A stretch of DNA of 35,499 nucleotides from a virus (Duplodnaviria > Heunggongvirae > Uroviricota > Caudoviricetes): IMG/VR virus record IMGVR_UViG_2541047894_000004; one strand, written 5' to 3'. Of the stretch, positions 1,985 to 18,887 are shown piece by piece; the stretch's first letter is position 1; every line of letters begins with the position of its first letter. Made by a program: the position numbers and the translations under genes. The notes below the pieces were generated by a model. The model was given only the letters and a program-made list of their open reading frames with translations. It had not been told where the DNA came from and made no database searches.

Positions 1985-2530
1985 TTATTCCTCTGAATTA
2001 TCGATTACACTGTATTCCCCGGTTAATACAGAGGAATCTGCAGGATCGATTGTCAGTGGTTCCTTTTCATCCATTGATACTGCACGCTGGATCTCAATTG
2101 ATACGGGCAGATATTTGAACAGGCGACGAATAGCCGTTTTCTTTGCCATTTCTTCCCAGTGAGTTACCCACGGCCCGTTATTACCAGCTTTACTCAGGCT
2201 GCGCACCAGCTCAATCTGTTTGCGCGTCATAACTTCAAACTGAGTACCTCCGTCTTTCAGTCTTGCGACAGCATAGACGTGGGTAACCGGGGCATCTTCG
2301 TTTTCTCCCGGGCGGTGTATTAACTTTTCATCAAGGCCAAATTCGAAGCTAAACTCGTCACCTTCACGGACAACACGGGCTGACAGGCTGGCGATTTTAC
2401 CTGACTTAACGATCAGGTAGTCCAGAGTGGCACAGGTCGATTCAAAATCGTTGCTTGCCCACAGGACGACGTCAGGTTCACCGGATGATTTTTTCGCTTT
2501 CCGTAACAGGAAGAGTGGTTTTGTGCTCAT
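1985..2530 (-). CDS. recT: Truncated RecT-family annealing protein: RecE-like N-terminal 45 aa fused in frame to RecT C-terminal ~136 aa
   Basis: 181-aa ORF; C-terminal part ([31 protein letters not shown]...[35 protein letters not shown]...[12 protein letters not shown]) matches recalled RecT; N-terminal [45 protein letters not shown] matches recalled RecE start; junction near 2396. Confidence 0.7.
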
Positions 2531-8474: not shown

Positions 8475-8489
8475 TTGCCGGAGGCGCTT

Positions 8490-8888
8490 ATGGCAAAAGT
8501 ATTTACACAAGAAGAGCGGGAAAAAATCAAGGGACAGGTTGTTGAGCTAGTACGCCGGAGTGGGCGCGAGACGTTACGGCAACTGGAAGCCAAGACAGGT
8601 GCGACAAGATATCTGATGAGCGTTCTCGCCAGAGAGCTGGTTGCCAGTGGCGATGTATATAACTCTGGCTACGGGTTATTCCCGTCTGAACAGGCTCGTA
8701 AGGACTGGCAAAACGCCCGCAAAAAACTCTCGAGGGCAAAGGTGAAGAAAACATCTGTGGTTGATCCGGACCTTATCTGGTCATTACCTGACGGAGAAAT
8801 ACGTCGTTATGACAGGCACCAAAACATAATTTGCTGTGAGTGCCGGAAGAGCGAAGTTATGCAGCGCATACTGGCATTTTATCAGTGA
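8490..8888 (+). CDS. Hypothetical protein, 132 aa
   Basis: GGAGG RBS; ORF with protein-like composition immediately downstream of the previous gene; function unknown. Confidence 0.55.
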   Translation: MAKVFTQEEREKIKGQVVELVRRSGRETLRQLEAKTGATRYLMSVLARELVASGDVYNSGYGLFPSEQARKDWQNARKKLSRAKVKKTSVVDPDLIWSLPDGEIRRYDRHQNIICCECRKSEVMQRILAFYQ

Positions 8889-9069
8889 AATTTTCGTTAT
8901 TTATAGACGTAACTAGATTAAAGAGCATTAGTTCAGATGTGAATTGACATTTTCACGGCACAGGATTGAGCTAGCGTGGTTGTCTGCTTTGCGTCAAAAG
9001 CAGATATTACAAGATTTAGACATCTATTCCCGATAGCCCTGCTCTGATGCTACACTCTGTGCTATTTTC

Positions 9070-9756
9070 ATGACCCCAATAAAAATATTTATGACTATTG
9101 CTGATTTCAAACGGCCTAAATTGGAGCTCCCAAACGGGGCAAACAAACTACTACTGCACTCTTGCTGTGCTCCATGTTCCGGTGAAGTGATGGAGGCGCT
9201 TCAGGCCTCGGGAATCGACTATACCATCTTTTTCTACAACCCGAACATTCATCCTCAGAAAGAGTATTTAATTCGTAAGGATGAGAATATTCGCTTTGCT
9301 GAACAACACGGCGTGCCATTTATTGATGCTGATTACGACACAGACAACTGGTTTGAACGTGCCAAAGGAATGGAATGGGAGCCCGAGAGGGGGATCCGTT
9401 GTACCATGTGTTTTGACATGCGTTTTGAGCGGACAGCGCTGTACGCTGCTGAAAATGGTTTCAGTGTGATCAGCAGTTCACTGGGCATTTCACGCTGGAA
9501 AAATATGCAGCAGGTTAACGACTGTGGGCGGCGAGCCGTCGCGCATTATCCGGGCATGGTGTACTGGGATTATAACTGGCGCAAGCAGGGCGGCTCGTCC
9601 CGCATGATTGAAATCAGCAAGCGCGAAAAATTCTATCAGCAGGAATATTGTGGCTGTGTGTATTCTCTGCGCGATACCAATCTACACCGCAAATCTCAGG
9701 GACGCCCTCTTATCAAAATTGGTCAACTCCACTACGGTAAAGAAGAGAAGGAGTGA
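9070..9756 (+). CDS. queH: QueH-like epoxyqueuosine reductase (DUF208 family)
   Basis: [20 protein letters not shown], EPERGxRC and C-terminal YCGC motifs as recalled for QueH/DUF208; own upstream region and downstream terminator. Confidence 0.72.
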
Positions 9757-9788
9757 TTTTATGGAGCACCTTTCTTATTGATTTCATA

Positions 9789-9817
9789 TTGGCGAGGTAG
9801 CGGGAGTTAAGTAAAAT
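9789..9817 (+). promoter_or_regulatory. Putative sigma70 promoter of the hok-like mRNA (TTGGCG-N17-TAAAAT)
   Basis: -35/-10 hexamers with 17-bp spacing about 6 nt upstream of GGGTGCTTGAGGCTATCTGCCTCA, which resembles the 5' end of plasmid R1 hok mRNA. Confidence 0.4.
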
Positions 9818-9884
9818 TGCTGCGGGTGCTTGAGGCTATCTGCCTCAGGCATGAACACCAAAAGGCAGATAGAGAAAAGCCCCA

Positions 9885-9950
9885 GTTAACATTACGCGTC
9901 TCTGCAAGACGCTTAACATTAATCTGAGGCTCAATCTATGCTGAACACAT
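9885..9950 (-). ncRNA. Possible Sok-like antisense RNA overlapping the mok initiation region (approximate)
   Basis: Inferred from hok/sok architecture; candidate minus-strand promoter TTGCCT-N17-TAACCT (rc of plus 9976-9981 and 9953-9958); hairpin GCGTCT/AGACGC at 9902-9918. Confidence 0.25.
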
Positions 9951-10143
9951 GCAGGTTAGCCTCTTACGTGCCGAAAGGCAAGGAGAAGCAGGCTATGAAG
10001 CAGTAAAAGGCGATGTTAATCGCCCTGATCGTCATCGGTTTAACCGTCATAGTGACGGCACTGGTAACGAGGAAAGACCTCTGCGAGGTACGAATCCGAA
10101 CCGGGCAGACGGAGGTCGCTGTCTTCACAGCTTACGAACCTGA
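9949..10143 (+). CDS. mok-like overlapping reading frame
   Basis: 64-aa ORF starting upstream of and overlapping the hok frame, as mok does in hok/sok loci. Confidence 0.4.
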   Translation: MQVSLLRAERQGEAGYEAVKGDVNRPDRHRFNRHSDGTGNEERPLRGTNPNRADGGRCLHSLRT

Positions 10144-10150
10144 GGAGTAA
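9995..10150 (+). pseudogene. hokD: Hok/Gef-family toxin gene (HokD/RelF-like) with an in-frame TAA at codon 4; 45-aa ORF possible from the internal ATG at 10013
   Basis: Reads MKQ*KAMLIALIVIGLTVIVTALVTRKDLCEVRIRTGQTEVAVFTAYEPEE; AGGAG RBS 9 nt before the ATG at 9995; the internal ATG lacks a good SD. Confidence 0.7.
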
Positions 10151-10220
10151 GAGACCGGGCGGGAGAGTAATCTCCCGCCACCTCTGATATGTCAGGCATC
10201 CTCAACGCACCCGCACTTAA

Positions 10221-10240
10221 CCCGCTTCGGCGGGTTTTTT
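10221..10240 (+). terminator. Rho-independent terminator of the hok-like transcript
   Basis: CCCGC-ttcg-GCGGG stem-loop followed by T6. Confidence 0.75.
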
Positions 10241-10358
10241 CACGTACTGTGGTTGTGAATACGATTGGTATTAGGCTATGCTAACAACATTAGCCTGACT
10301 AATTTTGTATTGACTTAATTTTTGTTAAAGAACAGGACGAAGACGTAAGGGTACACCA

Positions 10359-10538
10359 ATGAGCTACGCACTAAAAAAACACCCGCGATTGACTATTCCC
10401 CCTCGCGATAAAAGCGTTGTGGCAGCTCCGCGCCCGGCTATCGATGAAAATTGCACTCATCGTGAGCAGGTGAAAAATGCTTTCGATTTCGGTTTTTCTC
10501 GTTACGAGAAGGCAATGGAAGATCTTTCAAAAGTGTAA
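10359..10538 (+). CDS. Small protein upstream of doc, candidate antitoxin, 59 aa
   Basis: Hand-translated: MSYALKKHPRLTIPPRDKSVVAAPRPAIDENCTHREQVKNAFDFGFSRYEKAMEDLSKV; stop 10-19 nt before the doc start; no family assigned. Confidence 0.5.
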   Translation: MSYALKKHPRLTIPPRDKSVVAAPRPAIDENCTHREQVKNAFDFGFSRYEKAMEDLSKV

Positions 10539-10556
10539 TGATGGGTATTGTGCTCT

Positions 10557-11042
10557 ATGGCTGAGATTGTTGAAGGAGTGCACTACCTTTCGGTTGATGA
10601 TCTTACTGAAATTAATCGCCTTTTAATTGAGCTTCAAACACCAGATGAACCTGTTGGTGTGCTGAGTGTTGATAATTTAAGTTCTTCTCAGTCTCGTCCC
10701 AGTATGGTTCGATGGTATGAGCAAACCAACGACATGTTTGTACTGGCATCGGTATTGATTGAAAGTCTGATTCAGAATCATCCATTTGCCAATGCAAACA
10801 AGCGCACAGCAATGATGGCTGGTGCGGTTTTTTTATTGTTAAATGGATACGAATTAACCGCACCAGGCGATGAAGTTGTGGAGATGGCTGAGGGGCTGGC
10901 CTGTAAAATTTATACACGAGAAGAGCTTGAAAATTGGTTGTGTTATTGGTCTCGTGCGTATGACAGTCGGGAATTATGTAAAACAGGCGCAACTATTGTT
11001 TTGTATGAAACTATCAAGCTTAAAATAGAACAGCAAAACTAA
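10557..11042 (+). CDS. doc: Doc-family toxin (Fic/Doc fold), 161 aa
   Basis: HPFANANKR fits the Doc signature H-x-F-x-(D/N)-(A/G)-N-K-R; small gene immediately upstream; alternative TTG start at 10548. Confidence 0.78.
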   Translation: MAEIVEGVHYLSVDDLTEINRLLIELQTPDEPVGVLSVDNLSSSQSRPSMVRWYEQTNDMFVLASVLIESLIQNHPFANANKRTAMMAGAVFLLLNGYELTAPGDEVVEMAEGLACKIYTREELENWLCYWSRAYDSRELCKTGATIVLYETIKLKIEQQN

Positions 11043-13334: not shown

Positions 13335-13410
<76 letters not shown>

Positions 13411-13413
13411 TAT

Positions 13414-13488
<75 letters not shown>

Positions 13489-17170: not shown

Positions 17171-17962
17171 ATGAGCGAGAAATTGAAGATCGTCTATCGC
17201 CCTTTACAAGAACTGTCTCCGTATGCACACAACGCCAGGACACACAGCCCTGAGCAGGTGGCACAACTGGTAGAAAGCATTAAGCAATTCGGCTGGACTA
17301 ATCCGGTGCTGATTGATGAAAAGGGCGAAATTATTGCTGGTCACGGTCGCGTTATGGCGGCTGAAGTGCTCAAAATGGATTCCATTCCGGTCATCGTTCT
17401 GTCTGGTTTGATGGATGATCAGAAAAAGGCGTACCGCCTGGCAGATAATCGCCTGCCGATGAATGCTGGCTGGGATGAAGATCTGTTACGGATGGAGCTG
17501 TCGGACCTAATCAATGCTGATTTTGATGTCTCCCTGACAGGCTTCAGCCCGACAGAAATTGATGAACTGTTGACGGATGTTTTGCCCGGTACAGAAAATG
17601 AGGAGGAGCCGTATACGACGAAAATTGATACGCCTGTTTATGAGCCGTCGGGCGGTAAACCGGATATCAGTGAACTGTACGACGATACGAAAACTCAGGA
17701 GCTGATCAGCCGGATACGTTCGGCGTCTCTTGAGCCTGATATTGAGAAATTCCTCCTGTGTGCGGCAGAACGTCACACGGTGTTTAATTTCAGCAGAATT
17801 GCGGACTATTACGCTCACGCCCCCGCTGAAATTCAGTGTTTTTTCGAGGAGTCGGCGCTGGTGATCATTGATTATCAGCAGGCTATTGAAAATGGATTTG
17901 TCCGGATGACGCAGCGCATGGTGGAGATCATGCATGGTGGTGAGGAGGAGGAATATGCGTGA
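17171..17962 (+). CDS. ParB-like nuclease domain (ParB/Srx fold) protein, 263 aa
   Basis: N-terminal ParB-like motifs (YAHNARTHSPEQV..., GHGRVMAA); acidic C-terminus; located upstream of terminase. Confidence 0.75.
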   Translation: MSEKLKIVYRPLQELSPYAHNARTHSPEQVAQLVESIKQFGWTNPVLIDEKGEIIAGHGRVMAAEVLKMDSIPVIVLSGLMDDQKKAYRLADNRLPMNAGWDEDLLRMELSDLINADFDVSLTGFSPTEIDELLTDVLPGTENEEEPYTTKIDTPVYEPSGGKPDISELYDDTKTQELISRIRSASLEPDIEKFLLCAAERHTVFNFSRIADYYAHAPAEIQCFFEESALVIIDYQQAIENGFVRMTQRMVEIMHGGEEEEYA

Positions 17963-18887
17963 TGATTTTTGCGCCTTTATTCTGACTCACGGGCGACCGG
18001 ACAAAGTTCTGACTTACCGGACGTTGCGTCGTGCTGGCTATACCGGGAAAATTTTTATCGTTGTTGATGATGAAGATAAGACACGGCATCAGTACATGGC
18101 TGAATTTGGTGAACAGGTGCTGGTGTTTTCCAAAGCCGATATCGCCAGTCGTTTTGACGAAGCCGATAATTTCGGTGACCGCCGCTCAATTTTTTACGCC
18201 CGTAATGCCTGTTTCGACCTGGCAAAACTGGTCGGGTGTAAATACTTCATTCAGCTCGATGATGATTATCACGAGTTCCAGTTTCGGGTGGATCGCAACT
18301 ATGACCAGGCCTATTTTCCGATAAGGAAACTGGATGCGATCCTTTCTGAAATGCTGGCGTACTACGAATCAATACCTGCTCTTTCCATCGCTATGTCGCA
18401 GGGCGGGGATTTTCTTGGTGACAATGGCGGCCATGCTTCGTGGGTAAAACGCAAGGCAATGAACAGCTTTATCTGTTCGGTTGACCGACCGTTCTCATTC
18501 ATGGGGCGCATTAACGAGGATGTGAATACGTACACGAATCTCGGTCGCCGTGGTGAATTGTTTATGACGATCGGTGCTGTCCAGTTAGGGCAGAAACAGA
18601 CGCAGAAAAACAGCGGCGGAATGACCGAGCTGTATCTGGATTCCGGAACCTACGTTAAAAGTTTTTACTCCGTCATGTATGCGCCGTCGTGCGTAAAAAT
18701 CTCACTGATGGGAGCCAGCCATAAACGCATTCACCATCAGGTCACCTGGAACAACGCTGCAGTAAAAATCCTTCACGAAAAATACAGGAAGAAGACACCC
18801 TGCATATCAATAGGGGTGACAAATGATTCCGTATTCGAAAGTCGAGTCTCTGGCAGCGTGCCGGATGACTGCACAACAAATCGCTGA
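17955..18887 (+). CDS. Hypothetical protein, about 310 aa, possible GT-A-fold nucleotide-sugar transferase
   Basis: GAGGAGGAGG RBS; KIFIVVDDEDK and QLDDDYHE motifs resemble GT-A DxD signatures; assignment is tentative. Confidence 0.55.
   Translation: MRDDFCAFILTHGRPDKVLTYRTLRRAGYTGKIFIVVDDEDKTRHQYMAEFGEQVLVFSKADIASRFDEADNFGDRRSIFYARNACFDLAKLVGCKYFIQLDDDYHEFQFRVDRNYDQAYFPIRKLDAILSEMLAYYESIPALSIAMSQGGDFLGDNGGHASWVKRKAMNSFICSVDRPFSFMGRINEDVNTYTNLGRRGELFMTIGAVQLGQKQTQKNSGGMTELYLDSGTYVKSFYSVMYAPSCVKISLMGASHKRIHHQVTWNNAAVKILHEKYRKKTPCISIGVTNDSVFESRVSGSVPDDCTTNR

What the first reader, a model, noticed from the sequence alone, without database searches (positions are those of the whole stretch)
9070..9756. 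Prophage-borne QueH-like epoxyqueuosine reductase as a tRNA-modification moron
The protein carries the DUF208/QueH hallmarks as I recall them ([20 protein letters not shown], EPERGxRC, YCGC). E. coli normally performs the oQ-to-Q step with the cobalamin-dependent QueG; QueH is the non-orthologous, cobalamin-independent replacement. A QueH carried as lysogenic cargo could make queuosine formation independent of B12 availability and so alter decoding of NAU/NAC codons, or relate to phage 7-deazaguanine biology. The gene sits between its own promoter-like region with a hairpin (8990-9010) and the hok locus.
Basis: partly seen in the sequence, partly recalled or inferred. Interest (0 to 1): 0.6.

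Follow-up and report, generated by a model that had tools for sequence, protein, structure and literature searches.

The report
Prophage copy of QueH tRNA enzyme
A Rac-type E. coli prophage carries an intact, strongly conserved copy of QueH, the vitamin-B12-independent enzyme for the last step of queuosine tRNA modification; databases already name the gene correctly, but its effect on the host is untested.

Summary
ORF 9070-9756 (+) exists, carries all four quoted motifs, and matches Pfam QueH end to end (220.6 bits; cut-off 23.5). It also matches the Thermotoga maritima QueH crystal structure in sequence and in predicted fold. The real start is probably the second ATG (9091; 221 aa).

The gene is not new. 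RefSeq calls the identical protein "epoxyqueuosine reductase QueH", and 995 of 5426 complete E. coli genomes carry it. All 5426 also carry queG, so QueH is a second isozyme, not a replacement.

- It lies in a cargo slot of Rac-like and Qin-like lambdoid prophages, usually after a DUF977 gene and before hok/sok.
- Its nearest relatives (80-86% identical) are single chromosomal queH genes of Erwinia, Photorhabdus and Providencia.
- Prophage alleles show dN/dS of 0.02-0.08.
- A TGCTACACT motif about 34 nt upstream is conserved and is shared with Erwinia.
- K-12 and BL21(DE3) both lost the gene by deletion.

B12-independent queuosine formation in lysogens is plausible but unproven. I found no link to 7-deazaguanine DNA modification. 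Interest is modest.

The parts
9091..9756 (+). queH coding sequence from the probable true start codon (221 aa plus stop)
   Evidence: Pfam QueH 220.6 bits. RefSeq WP_021554705.1 starts here. Orthologues align from this Met. dN/dS among prophage alleles is 0.02-0.08.
9070..9090 (+). In-frame upstream extension of the maximal ORF, probably 5' UTR rather than coding
   Evidence: The first ATG is ATT in allele TUM14759. These 7 codons change amino acids between the window and HannyBb, MTPIKIF versus MNLINTF.
9163..9177 (+). CCAPC motif: Cys25, Cys26 and Cys29 in 221-aa numbering
   Evidence: Cys25 and Cys26 are invariant in 9 of 9 diverse QueH sequences, including T. maritima. Cys29 aligns with T. 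maritima Asp13 and is Cys in all 8 non-Thermotoga sequences.
9400..9411 (+). CxxC motif: Cys104 and Cys107
   Evidence: Invariant in all aligned QueH sequences.
9649..9657 (+). CGC motif: Cys187 and Cys189
   Evidence: Invariant in all aligned QueH sequences.
9019..9090 (+). Conserved 5' flank that travels with the gene (smallest shared cassette)
   Evidence: Upstream homology persists to about -72 even in the 16 IMG/VR loci whose further upstream DNA is unrelated.
9048..9056 (+). TGCTACACT, a candidate extended -10 promoter element 34 nt before ATG 9091
   Evidence: TGCTACAC sits at -34 in 78 of 79 IMG/VR loci and in all six aligned alleles. It also lies 31 nt before the chromosomal Erwinia queH start. 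Promoter activity is inferred, not shown, and the consensus scan did not call it.
8983..9006 (+).
   Evidence: -15.2 kcal/mol, z -4.2 in this window. The ST131/O157 allele folds at -6.8 kcal/mol, z -0.5. The intact form is present in only 8 of 79 IMG/VR loci.
8475..8888 (+). DUF977 gene, the usual upstream neighbour
   Evidence: Pfam DUF977 100.6 bits. It lies upstream of queH in 71 of 78 IMG/VR loci with enough sequence.
9824..10150 (+). hok/sok type I toxin-antitoxin locus, the usual downstream neighbour and a separate module
   Evidence: Rfam sok 118.8 bits and Pfam HOK_GEF 76.6 bits. hok lies within 1.5 kb downstream in 63 of 76 loci. It is separated from queH by a 400-bp insert in HannyBb and replaced by a restriction-modification system in an O157:H7 strain.

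Best explanation
The gene encodes a genuine QueH, the cobalamin-independent iron-sulfur epoxyqueuosine reductase. QueH converts epoxyqueuosine (oQ) to queuosine (Q) at position 34 of tRNA-Asp, -Asn, -His and -Tyr.

Inferred history and function:
- The gene was captured, together with about 70 nt of its own 5' flank, from the chromosome of another member of the Enterobacterales.
- It now sits in the accessory-gene slot between the replication genes and the Q-antiterminator region of Rac-like and Qin-like lambdoid prophages.
- Every E. coli already has the cobamide-dependent QueG and cannot make B12 itself. The most likely contribution is therefore a second route to Q that works when cobamides are unavailable, conditions under which strains without QueH accumulate oQ.

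Shown: family membership, intact catalytic cysteines, prophage location, co-occurrence with queG, origin from chromosomal homologues, and strong purifying selection.
Inferred: enzymatic activity in E. coli, transcription from the conserved TGCTACACT motif in the repressed prophage, and any fitness benefit.
For: Family membership:
- Pfam QueH 220.6 bits, full length.
- PDB T. maritima QueH at E 5e-22.
- The AlphaFold model (pLDDT 80, pTM 0.81) has QueH structures as its five best Foldseek hits, at E 2.6e-11 to 6.7e-10 with TM 0.78-0.79 normalised by target length. The next hits are at about 1e-5.
- Six cysteines are invariant across diverse QueH sequences.

Origin:
- The nearest relatives are 80-86% identical.
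- They sit alone in ordinary chromosomal contexts in Erwinia (between purL and glrK), Photorhabdus, Ewingella, Providencia, Pantoea and Gibbsiella.

Selection: dN/dS is 0.019-0.078 with dS up to 0.45 among prophage alleles. All 79 IMG/VR copies examined have an intact 221-aa ORF.

Distribution: 995 of 5426 complete E. coli genomes carry queH. All 5426 carry queG.

Possible promoter: TGCTACAC is kept at -34 in 78 of 79 loci and recurs at -31 in Erwinia.

Physiology: E. coli grown in M9 accumulates oQ because the medium lacks B12 (PMC7026641).
Against: - No experiment shows activity of this allele or its expression in a lysogen.
- The promoter scan did not call a sigma-70 promoter, and the -35 region is poor (my own reading of the sequence).
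- No terminator follows the gene.
- The gene lies in the same orientation as the early-right operon, so it could be transcribed only on induction.
- No clear phenotype distinguishes oQ from Q. In one study, deleting queG did not change the growth of a delta-metE strain with cobalamin or pseudocobalamin (PMC11841063).
- NCBIfam has no model that hits the protein.
- K-12 and BL21(DE3) lost the gene without obvious harm.
Confidence: 0.6

Rival explanations
1. QueH is a lytic-cycle helper. It is transcribed with the early-right operon after induction and keeps host tRNAs fully Q-modified so that phage late genes are translated efficiently. It has no role in the lysogen.
For: The gene is on the same strand as, and directly downstream of, the replication genes, with no predicted terminator before it. 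The prophage late genes use NAU codons somewhat more often (0.71) than two host chromosome samples (0.54 and 0.64).
Against: The conserved private 5' flank and TGCTACACT motif, shared with a chromosomal orthologue, argue for autonomous transcription. The enzyme would matter only in B12-poor cells, and a decoding difference between oQ and Q is not known. The codon-usage difference is small and tracks AT content. Many carriers appear to be defective prophages yet keep an intact gene under strong purifying selection.
Confidence: 0.2
2. QueH is a neutral passenger that hitch-hikes in a cargo hot spot next to addiction modules (hok/sok, Doc) and has no selected function in E. coli.
For: The slot holds varied cargo: hok/sok, a Doc toxin, an NgoMIV-type restriction-modification system, and DUF1971. 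K-12 and BL21(DE3) lost the gene. All hosts already have queG.
Against: dN/dS is 0.02-0.08 at dS up to 0.45. All catalytic cysteines are kept, and 79 of 79 ORFs are intact across 17 nucleotide alleles. This is not the pattern of a decaying passenger.
Confidence: 0.08
3. QueH changes the modification state of the four Q-tRNAs to influence a conflict system, for example sensitivity to anticodon nucleases or to superinfecting phages. It would then act as a defence or counter-defence gene.
For: The neighbourhood is rich in conflict genes: sieB, hok/sok, Doc, and a restriction-modification system in other alleles. From general knowledge, some anticodon nucleases such as colicin E5 target exactly the Q-tRNAs. 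A 2026 preprint links Q to phage resistance in Shewanella (listed; not read).
Against: No PADLOC model matches the protein. Its sequence is an ordinary housekeeping-type QueH with no added domain. No evidence shows that oQ versus Q alters nuclease sensitivity.
Confidence: 0.06
4. QueH acts on 7-deazaguanine bases in phage DNA rather than on tRNA.
For: Phages are known to place 7-deazaguanines in DNA (PMC6884629).
Against: Pfam scans of the window's large ORFs found no DpdA/TGT-like transglycosylase and no FolE, QueD, QueE or QueC. That paper states that no QueA, QueG or QueH homologues occurred in the DpdA viruses it analysed. An oQ-type DNA base would also need QueA chemistry on DNA, which is unknown.
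Confidence: 0.02

Closest known systems
QueH (DUF208, PF02677), epoxyqueuosine reductase; structural reference T. maritima QueH (PDB 7LC5, 7LC7, 9DEU)
   Same: Full-length profile match, same predicted fold, and the same six invariant cysteines (CC, CxxC, CGC).
   Different: About 30% identity to the T. maritima enzyme. It has Cys where T. maritima has Asp13, the residue mutated in PDB entry 9DCO; Cys is the norm in the other 8 sequences compared. It also has about 19 extra N-terminal and 25 basic C-terminal residues, which are shared with chromosomal enterobacterial QueH.
Chromosomal QueH of Enterobacterales (Erwinia, Photorhabdus, Providencia, Ewingella, Pantoea, Gibbsiella)
   Same: 80-86% identical in protein, same length, and a stand-alone gene. 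Erwinia shares the TGCTACACT motif upstream.
   Different: Those genes sit among housekeeping genes. This one sits inside lambdoid prophages of a species whose own oQ reductase is QueG.
QueG (E. coli yjeS), cobalamin- and [4Fe-4S]-dependent epoxyqueuosine reductase
   Same: Catalyses the same reaction, oQ-tRNA to Q-tRNA (PMC5372724).
   Different: Unrelated family that needs a cobamide (PMC4646009). It is core in E. coli, 5426 of 5426 genomes, whereas queH is accessory, 995 of 5426.
Lambdoid prophage morons and lysogenic-conversion genes
   Same: An accessory gene of non-phage origin, present or absent among otherwise homologous prophages, sitting in a variable cargo slot with a candidate promoter of its own.
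   Different: No terminator of its own, no clear compositional difference (GC 48.5% versus 46.9% for the window), and expression in the lysogen not shown.
Phage 7-deazaguanine DNA-modification clusters (DpdA with FolE, QueC, QueD, QueE)
   Same: Both are phage-borne genes taken from the queuosine pathway.
   Different: Those clusters make preQ0-type bases and insert them into DNA, and they lack QueA, QueG and QueH (PMC6884629). This prophage carries only the last tRNA-specific step and no DpdA.

Membership tests
QueH (PF02677/DUF208) epoxyqueuosine reductase | Significant, essentially full-length match to the family profile | tested here: met
   220.6 bits against a cut-off of 23.5, profile positions 1-174 of 175.
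QueH (PF02677/DUF208) epoxyqueuosine reductase | Homology in sequence and fold to the crystallised T. maritima QueH | tested here: met
   phmmer E 5.2e-22 over residues 27-203. The five best Foldseek hits of the model are all QueH entries, at E 2.6e-11 to 6.7e-10 and TM 0.78-0.79 normalised by target length.
QueH (PF02677/DUF208) epoxyqueuosine reductase | Conserved cysteines expected to hold the [4Fe-4S] cluster and the adjacent metal (CC, CxxC, CGC) | tested here: met
   Cys25, 26, 104, 107, 187 and 189 are invariant in 9 diverse sequences and in 26 close homologues. Which cysteine binds which metal rests on my recollection of the structure paper, which was not held.
QueH (PF02677/DUF208) epoxyqueuosine reductase | Residue equivalent to T. 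maritima Asp13 (mutated in PDB 9DCO) | tested here: inconclusive
   It is Cys29 here, as in all 8 non-Thermotoga sequences aligned, so Cys appears to be the family norm. Its functional equivalence to Asp was not tested.
QueH (PF02677/DUF208) epoxyqueuosine reductase | Cobalamin-independent conversion of oQ-tRNA to Q-tRNA | not testable with these tools
   Needs complementation of a delta-queG strain and LC-MS of tRNA nucleosides.
Moron / lysogenic-conversion gene of a lambdoid prophage | Present or absent among otherwise homologous prophages; non-phage origin | tested here: met
   995 of 5426 genomes have queH, while 5425 of 5426 match some part of the surrounding 8 kb. BL21(DE3) and K-12 Rac lack it through deletions. 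The closest homologues are chromosomal.
Moron / lysogenic-conversion gene of a lambdoid prophage | Own promoter | tested here: inconclusive
   TGCTACACT at -34 is conserved in 78 of 79 loci and shared with Erwinia. The consensus scan does not call a promoter, and there are no transcript data.
Moron / lysogenic-conversion gene of a lambdoid prophage | Own terminator | tested here: not met
   No terminator-like site lies between the queH stop (9756) and the hok promoter region.
Moron / lysogenic-conversion gene of a lambdoid prophage | Expressed from the repressed prophage and changes the host phenotype | not testable with these tools
   Needs RNA-seq or 5'-RACE and Q/oQ measurement in lysogens.
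Phage 7-deazaguanine DNA-modification system | DpdA/TGT-like transglycosylase and preQ0 synthesis genes in the same element | tested here: not met
   None appears among the Pfam hits for the window's ORFs of 90 aa or more, nor in the RefSeq annotation of near-identical prophages.
Known anti-phage defence systems (PADLOC) | Match to a defence-system protein model | tested here: not met
   No PADLOC family matches QueH.

The most novel reading that the evidence does not exclude
Lambdoid prophages carry out lysogenic conversion of the host's tRNA modification state. By supplying QueH from a promoter captured along with the gene, they make completion of queuosine independent of cobamide supply in about one in five E. 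coli strains, including ST131, O157:H7, O104:H4 and APEC lineages. The strong purifying selection on the gene would then mean that Q versus oQ has a fitness consequence, for the lysogen or the phage, that has so far gone unnoticed. One reason it could go unnoticed is that both standard laboratory strains, K-12 and BL21(DE3), have deleted the gene.
Probability: 0.3. Interest if true: 0.55.

Novelty: already known. Interest (0 to 1): 0.35.

Why it matters
If the prophage QueH is active in lysogens, 'E. coli needs B12 to finish queuosine' holds only for strains without the gene, and those include the common laboratory strains. tRNA modification profiles, and any phenotype that depends on Q versus oQ, would then differ between wild and laboratory E. 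coli for a prophage-borne reason.

The strong purifying selection also offers a way into an open question: does the epoxide-to-alkene step matter at all? E. coli B (queH present) and BL21(DE3) (queH deleted) form a ready-made near-isogenic pair to test it.

As a database object the gene is ordinary and already correctly named.

Tried and rejected
- **Riboswitch or other known RNA in the conserved 5' flank.** An Rfam scan of 8700-10500 at permissive E-value found nothing upstream of queH. It found only sok/hok and a weak isrK-like terminator downstream. Folding 8960-9100 is not better than shuffles (z -0.87).
- **The hairpin as a regulatory element.** Rejected because it is not conserved.
- **NCBIfam.** No model hits the protein, so the RefSeq name must come from another rule. 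This is not evidence against membership.
- **PADLOC.** No hit.
- **Phage genome collection.**
  - Only one isolated phage carries the gene: Escherichia phage HannyBb, which annotates it as hypothetical.
  - The 'Acinetobacter phage MD-2021a' hits are bacterial chromosome contigs filed as phage.
  - The Staphylococcus and Listeria 'phage' hits are unverified records.
  - None of these counts as evidence for phage carriage outside E. coli.
- **Literature.** None found a paper describing prophage-borne QueH in E. coli. The key QueH papers (Zallot 2017; the 2021 structure paper) and Frey 1988 and Miles 2011 are not held, so a mention there cannot be excluded.
- **NAU/NAC codon usage of prophage genes.** There is a small excess in late genes, but it is not decisive.
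- **Not run.** A check that the chromosomal QueH carriers lack QueG. The genome scan returns at most 80 loci and cannot show absence.

Full report
**1. The observation**

The ORF listing reports an ORF at 9070-9756 on the + strand, 228 aa with an ATG start.

| Motif | Residues |
|---|---|
| [11 protein letters not shown] | 27-37 |
| FFYNPNIHP | 54-62 |
| EPERGIRC | 104-111 |
| YCGC | 193-196 |

**2. Family assignment**

- Pfam gives a single hit, PF02677 QueH, at 220.6 bits (gathering cut-off 23.5). It covers profile positions 1-174 of 175.
- A sequence search of the PDB finds only T. maritima QueH (7LC5 and its mutants), at E 5e-22 over residues 27-203.
- An AlphaFold2 model built on 26 homologues has mean pLDDT 80 and pTM 0.81.
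- The five best Foldseek matches of that model in the PDB are all QueH entries (E 2.6e-11 to 6.7e-10; TM 0.78-0.79 normalised by target length).
- The next matches, at about 1e-5, are other members of the adenine-nucleotide alpha-hydrolase-like fold, such as TtuA and argininosuccinate synthetase.
- I aligned nine diverse QueH sequences: T. maritima, a Staphylococcus contig, three gut-metagenome contigs, an Acinetobacter contig, Erwinia, Photorhabdus and this protein. Six cysteines are invariant: Cys25, 26, 104, 107, 187 and 189 in 221-aa numbering.
- The position of T. maritima Asp13 is Cys in all eight non-Thermotoga sequences. That residue was important enough to be crystallised as a D13N mutant. 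CCAPC is therefore the family norm and this protein is typical.
- NCBIfam has no model that hits it. PHROGs places it in phrog_3217, 'unknown function'. PADLOC has nothing.

**3. The true start codon**

Three lines of evidence point to the second ATG at 9091 (221 aa):

- RefSeq annotates the identical gene from that ATG.
- The first ATG is ATT in the divergent allele TUM14759. The seven extra codons differ in amino acids between this window and phage HannyBb.
- Chromosomal orthologues align from the second Met.

**4. Already known at the database level**

- The 687-bp ORF matches 995 of 5426 complete E. coli genomes. In 985 of them the match covers at least 80% of the ORF.
- Under every listed match RefSeq annotates 'epoxyqueuosine reductase QueH'; in E. 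coli 042 and APEC O1 the protein is WP_021554705.1.
- IMG/VR holds at least 191 viral or prophage contigs encoding close relatives.
- The phage genome collection has only one isolated phage with the gene, Escherichia phage HannyBb, which annotates it as hypothetical.
- The other 'phage' hits are unverified records. Two are demonstrably bacterial chromosome contigs mislabelled as phage.

**5. Genomic context**

The window is a Rac-family lambdoid prophage. Its gene order, left to right, is:

1. integrase
2. a RecE::RecT deletion fusion
3. sieB
4. repressor and cro-like genes
5. ydaT
6. replication genes, including a DnaC/IstB-like ATPase
7. DUF1627
8. DUF977
9. queH
10. hok/sok
11. a small ORF followed by a Doc/Fic toxin
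12. DUF1367, YbcO and a Q-antiterminator-like DUF1133
13. tRNA-Thr and tRNA-Gly
14. lysis genes
15. trkG
16. a ParB_N and TAGT-like pair
17. terminase, head and tail genes

The same queH cassette occurs in Qin/DicB-type prophages of ST131, O157:H7 and E. coli B. There too it follows DUF977.

| Neighbour (79 IMG/VR loci examined) | Loci |
|---|---|
| DUF977 upstream | 71 of 78 with enough sequence |
| hok within 1.5 kb downstream | 63 of 76 with enough sequence |

The downstream neighbour can also be a restriction-modification system or a DUF1971 gene. In HannyBb a 400-bp insert separates queH from hok. So queH is an independent module in a cargo hot spot, not part of hok/sok.

**6. Relation to the host pathway**

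queG DNA is present in all 5426 complete E. coli genomes. Every QueH carrier therefore has both enzymes. QueH is redundant on paper but differs in cofactor:

- QueG needs a cobamide plus two [4Fe-4S] clusters (PMC4646009).
- QueH is a non-orthologous replacement (PMC5372724). From my own recollection of Zallot et al. 2017, which is not held, no cobalamin was found with it, and A. baylyi was described as one of the few organisms with both enzymes.

**7. Origin**

The closest non-E. coli relatives are 80-86% identical. The six loci fetched (Erwinia, Photorhabdus, Ewingella, Providencia, Pantoea, Gibbsiella) are stand-alone genes in ordinary chromosomal neighbourhoods. The Erwinia gene, for example, lies between purL and glrK. 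The prophage gene is thus a fairly recent capture of an enterobacterial housekeeping queH, with no added or lost domains.

**8. Selection**

I made pairwise Nei-Gojobori estimates among six prophage alleles: this window, HannyBb, E. coli B, ST131, O157 and TUM14759. dN/dS is 0.019-0.078, with dS up to 0.45. All 79 IMG/VR copies have an intact 221-aa ORF, across 17 nucleotide alleles but only 5 protein alleles. This is the signature of an enzyme in use, not a decaying passenger.

**9. Control region**

The consensus scan finds no sigma-70 promoter upstream of the gene on the + strand and no terminator around it.

The hairpin is not a conserved feature:

- It is strong in this window (8983-9006; -15.2 kcal/mol, z -4.2).
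- Two non-compensatory substitutions abolish it in the commonest allele (-6.8 kcal/mol, z -0.5).
- Among the 79 IMG/VR loci, the intact form is in 8, the disrupted form in 55, and unrelated sequence occupies the site in 16.

What is conserved is the proximal 70 nt or so, and above all the block CTCTGATGCTACAC:

- TGCTACAC lies 34 nt before ATG 9091 in 78 of 79 loci.
- It survives in TUM14759, where the rest of the flank is scrambled.
- TGCTACACT also lies 31 nt before the start of the chromosomal Erwinia queH.

TGnTAnnnT is the form of an extended -10 element. I infer that the gene was captured with its own promoter. This is inference only. The -35 region is poor, the motif ends in A rather than T in TUM14759, and there are no transcript data. 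No Shine-Dalgarno sequence precedes ATG 9091 in either the prophage or the Erwinia gene.

**10. Rivals**

- **Lytic-cycle helper.** Cannot be excluded. The gene is co-oriented with the early-right operon and no terminator precedes it. Late genes are slightly NAU-rich: 0.71 against 0.54 and 0.64 in two host samples.
- **Neutral passenger.** Contradicted by the selection data.
- **DNA-modification role.** Lacks every required partner. It also runs against the published statement that the DpdA viruses analysed lacked QueA, QueG and QueH (PMC6884629).
- **Conflict-system role through tRNA state.** Pure speculation. Only the neighbourhood supports it.

**11. Why E. coli is regarded as QueG-only**

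- K-12's Rac prophage has a deletion running from inside the DUF1627 gene (ydaW) to the Rz remnant. It removes the whole DUF977-queH-hok segment.
- BL21(DE3)'s Qin prophage has a clean deletion of about 1.36 kb relative to an E. coli B derivative. It removes the 3' end of DUF977 and all of queH, and the flanks are identical.

Both standard laboratory strains therefore lack the gene.

**12. Verdict**

- The finding is real and the family call is right. The gene is already correctly named in RefSeq in about a thousand complete genomes, so the object itself is already known.
- What the searchable literature does not describe is its status as widespread, strongly conserved prophage cargo sitting alongside a core queG, and what that does to Q versus oQ in wild E. 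coli.
- This is a testable but modestly surprising hypothesis. Its weak point is that no phenotype is known to separate oQ from Q.
- Interest: 0.35.

Noticed in passing
window 10002-10004 (within the hok reading frame starting at 9993): The fourth codon of hok is TAA here, but CAA in HannyBb and E. coli B. Hok can therefore only be made from the internal ATG at 10013 (45 aa). RefSeq annotates that shorter Hok in APEC O1. It is unknown whether the toxin and its mok/sok control still work.
   Followed up: partly
window 17171-17962 and 17934-18887 (+): A ParB_N-domain protein is followed by a protein matching PF20691 'TET-associated glycosyltransferase' (124.6 bits), just upstream of the small terminase. 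RefSeq calls the second one hypothetical. This may be a DNA-modification or packaging-associated pair conserved in Rac-like prophages; K-12's ynaK is the ParB-like remnant.
   Followed up: no
window 1985-2530 (-): A 181-aa ORF joins the first 45 residues of exonuclease VIII (RecE) to RecT residues 68-187. This is an internal recE-recT deletion, so this prophage has lost its recombination module.
   Followed up: partly
L014 (BL21(DE3) NC_012971.2 1591224-1591484) versus L009 (E. coli B-RalR): BL21(DE3) lacks queH because of a clean deletion of about 1.36 kb in its Qin prophage. The deletion also removes the end of the DUF977 gene and a methyltransferase fragment. The flanks are 100% identical to an E. 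coli B derivative that keeps queH, which gives a natural near-isogenic pair.
   Followed up: yes
L104 (K-12 MG1655 Rac, NC_000913.3 1422752-1423644): K-12 Rac goes from a truncated DUF1627 gene (ydaW) straight to the rzpR pseudogene. The DUF977-queH-hok-Doc-Q-tRNA-holin segment seen in this window is deleted in K-12.
   Followed up: partly
L015 (CAKLQH020000001.1, 'Acinetobacter phage MD-2021a', 328 kb): This record in the phage collection is a bacterial chromosome contig carrying soxR, tadA, cynX and a gntR regulator. Its QueH (78% identical) is annotated 'putative prophage protein'. It should not be counted as a phage-borne QueH.
   Followed up: yes
window 10359-10538 and 10548-11042 (+): A 59-aa ORF with no Pfam hit is followed by a Fic/Doc-family toxin (45.3 bits). 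This looks like a Phd/Doc-like toxin-antitoxin pair inserted between hok and the DUF1367 gene. It is absent from the E. coli 042 version of the prophage.
   Followed up: no
window 13335-13410 and 13414-13488 (+): The prophage carries tRNA-Thr(UGU) and tRNA-Gly(UCC). Neither is a queuosine-bearing tRNA, so they are unrelated to QueH. The ST131 version adds a tRNA-Ile.
   Followed up: no
L029, L032, L036, L038 groups (IMG/VR), about 75-95 nt upstream of queH: In 16 of 79 loci the DNA upstream of the conserved 72-nt flank is unrelated. It contains a GC-rich inverted repeat (CCGCCCGAAAGGGCGGGG), which shows that the queH cassette has been recombined into at least three different upstream contexts.
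   Followed up: partly
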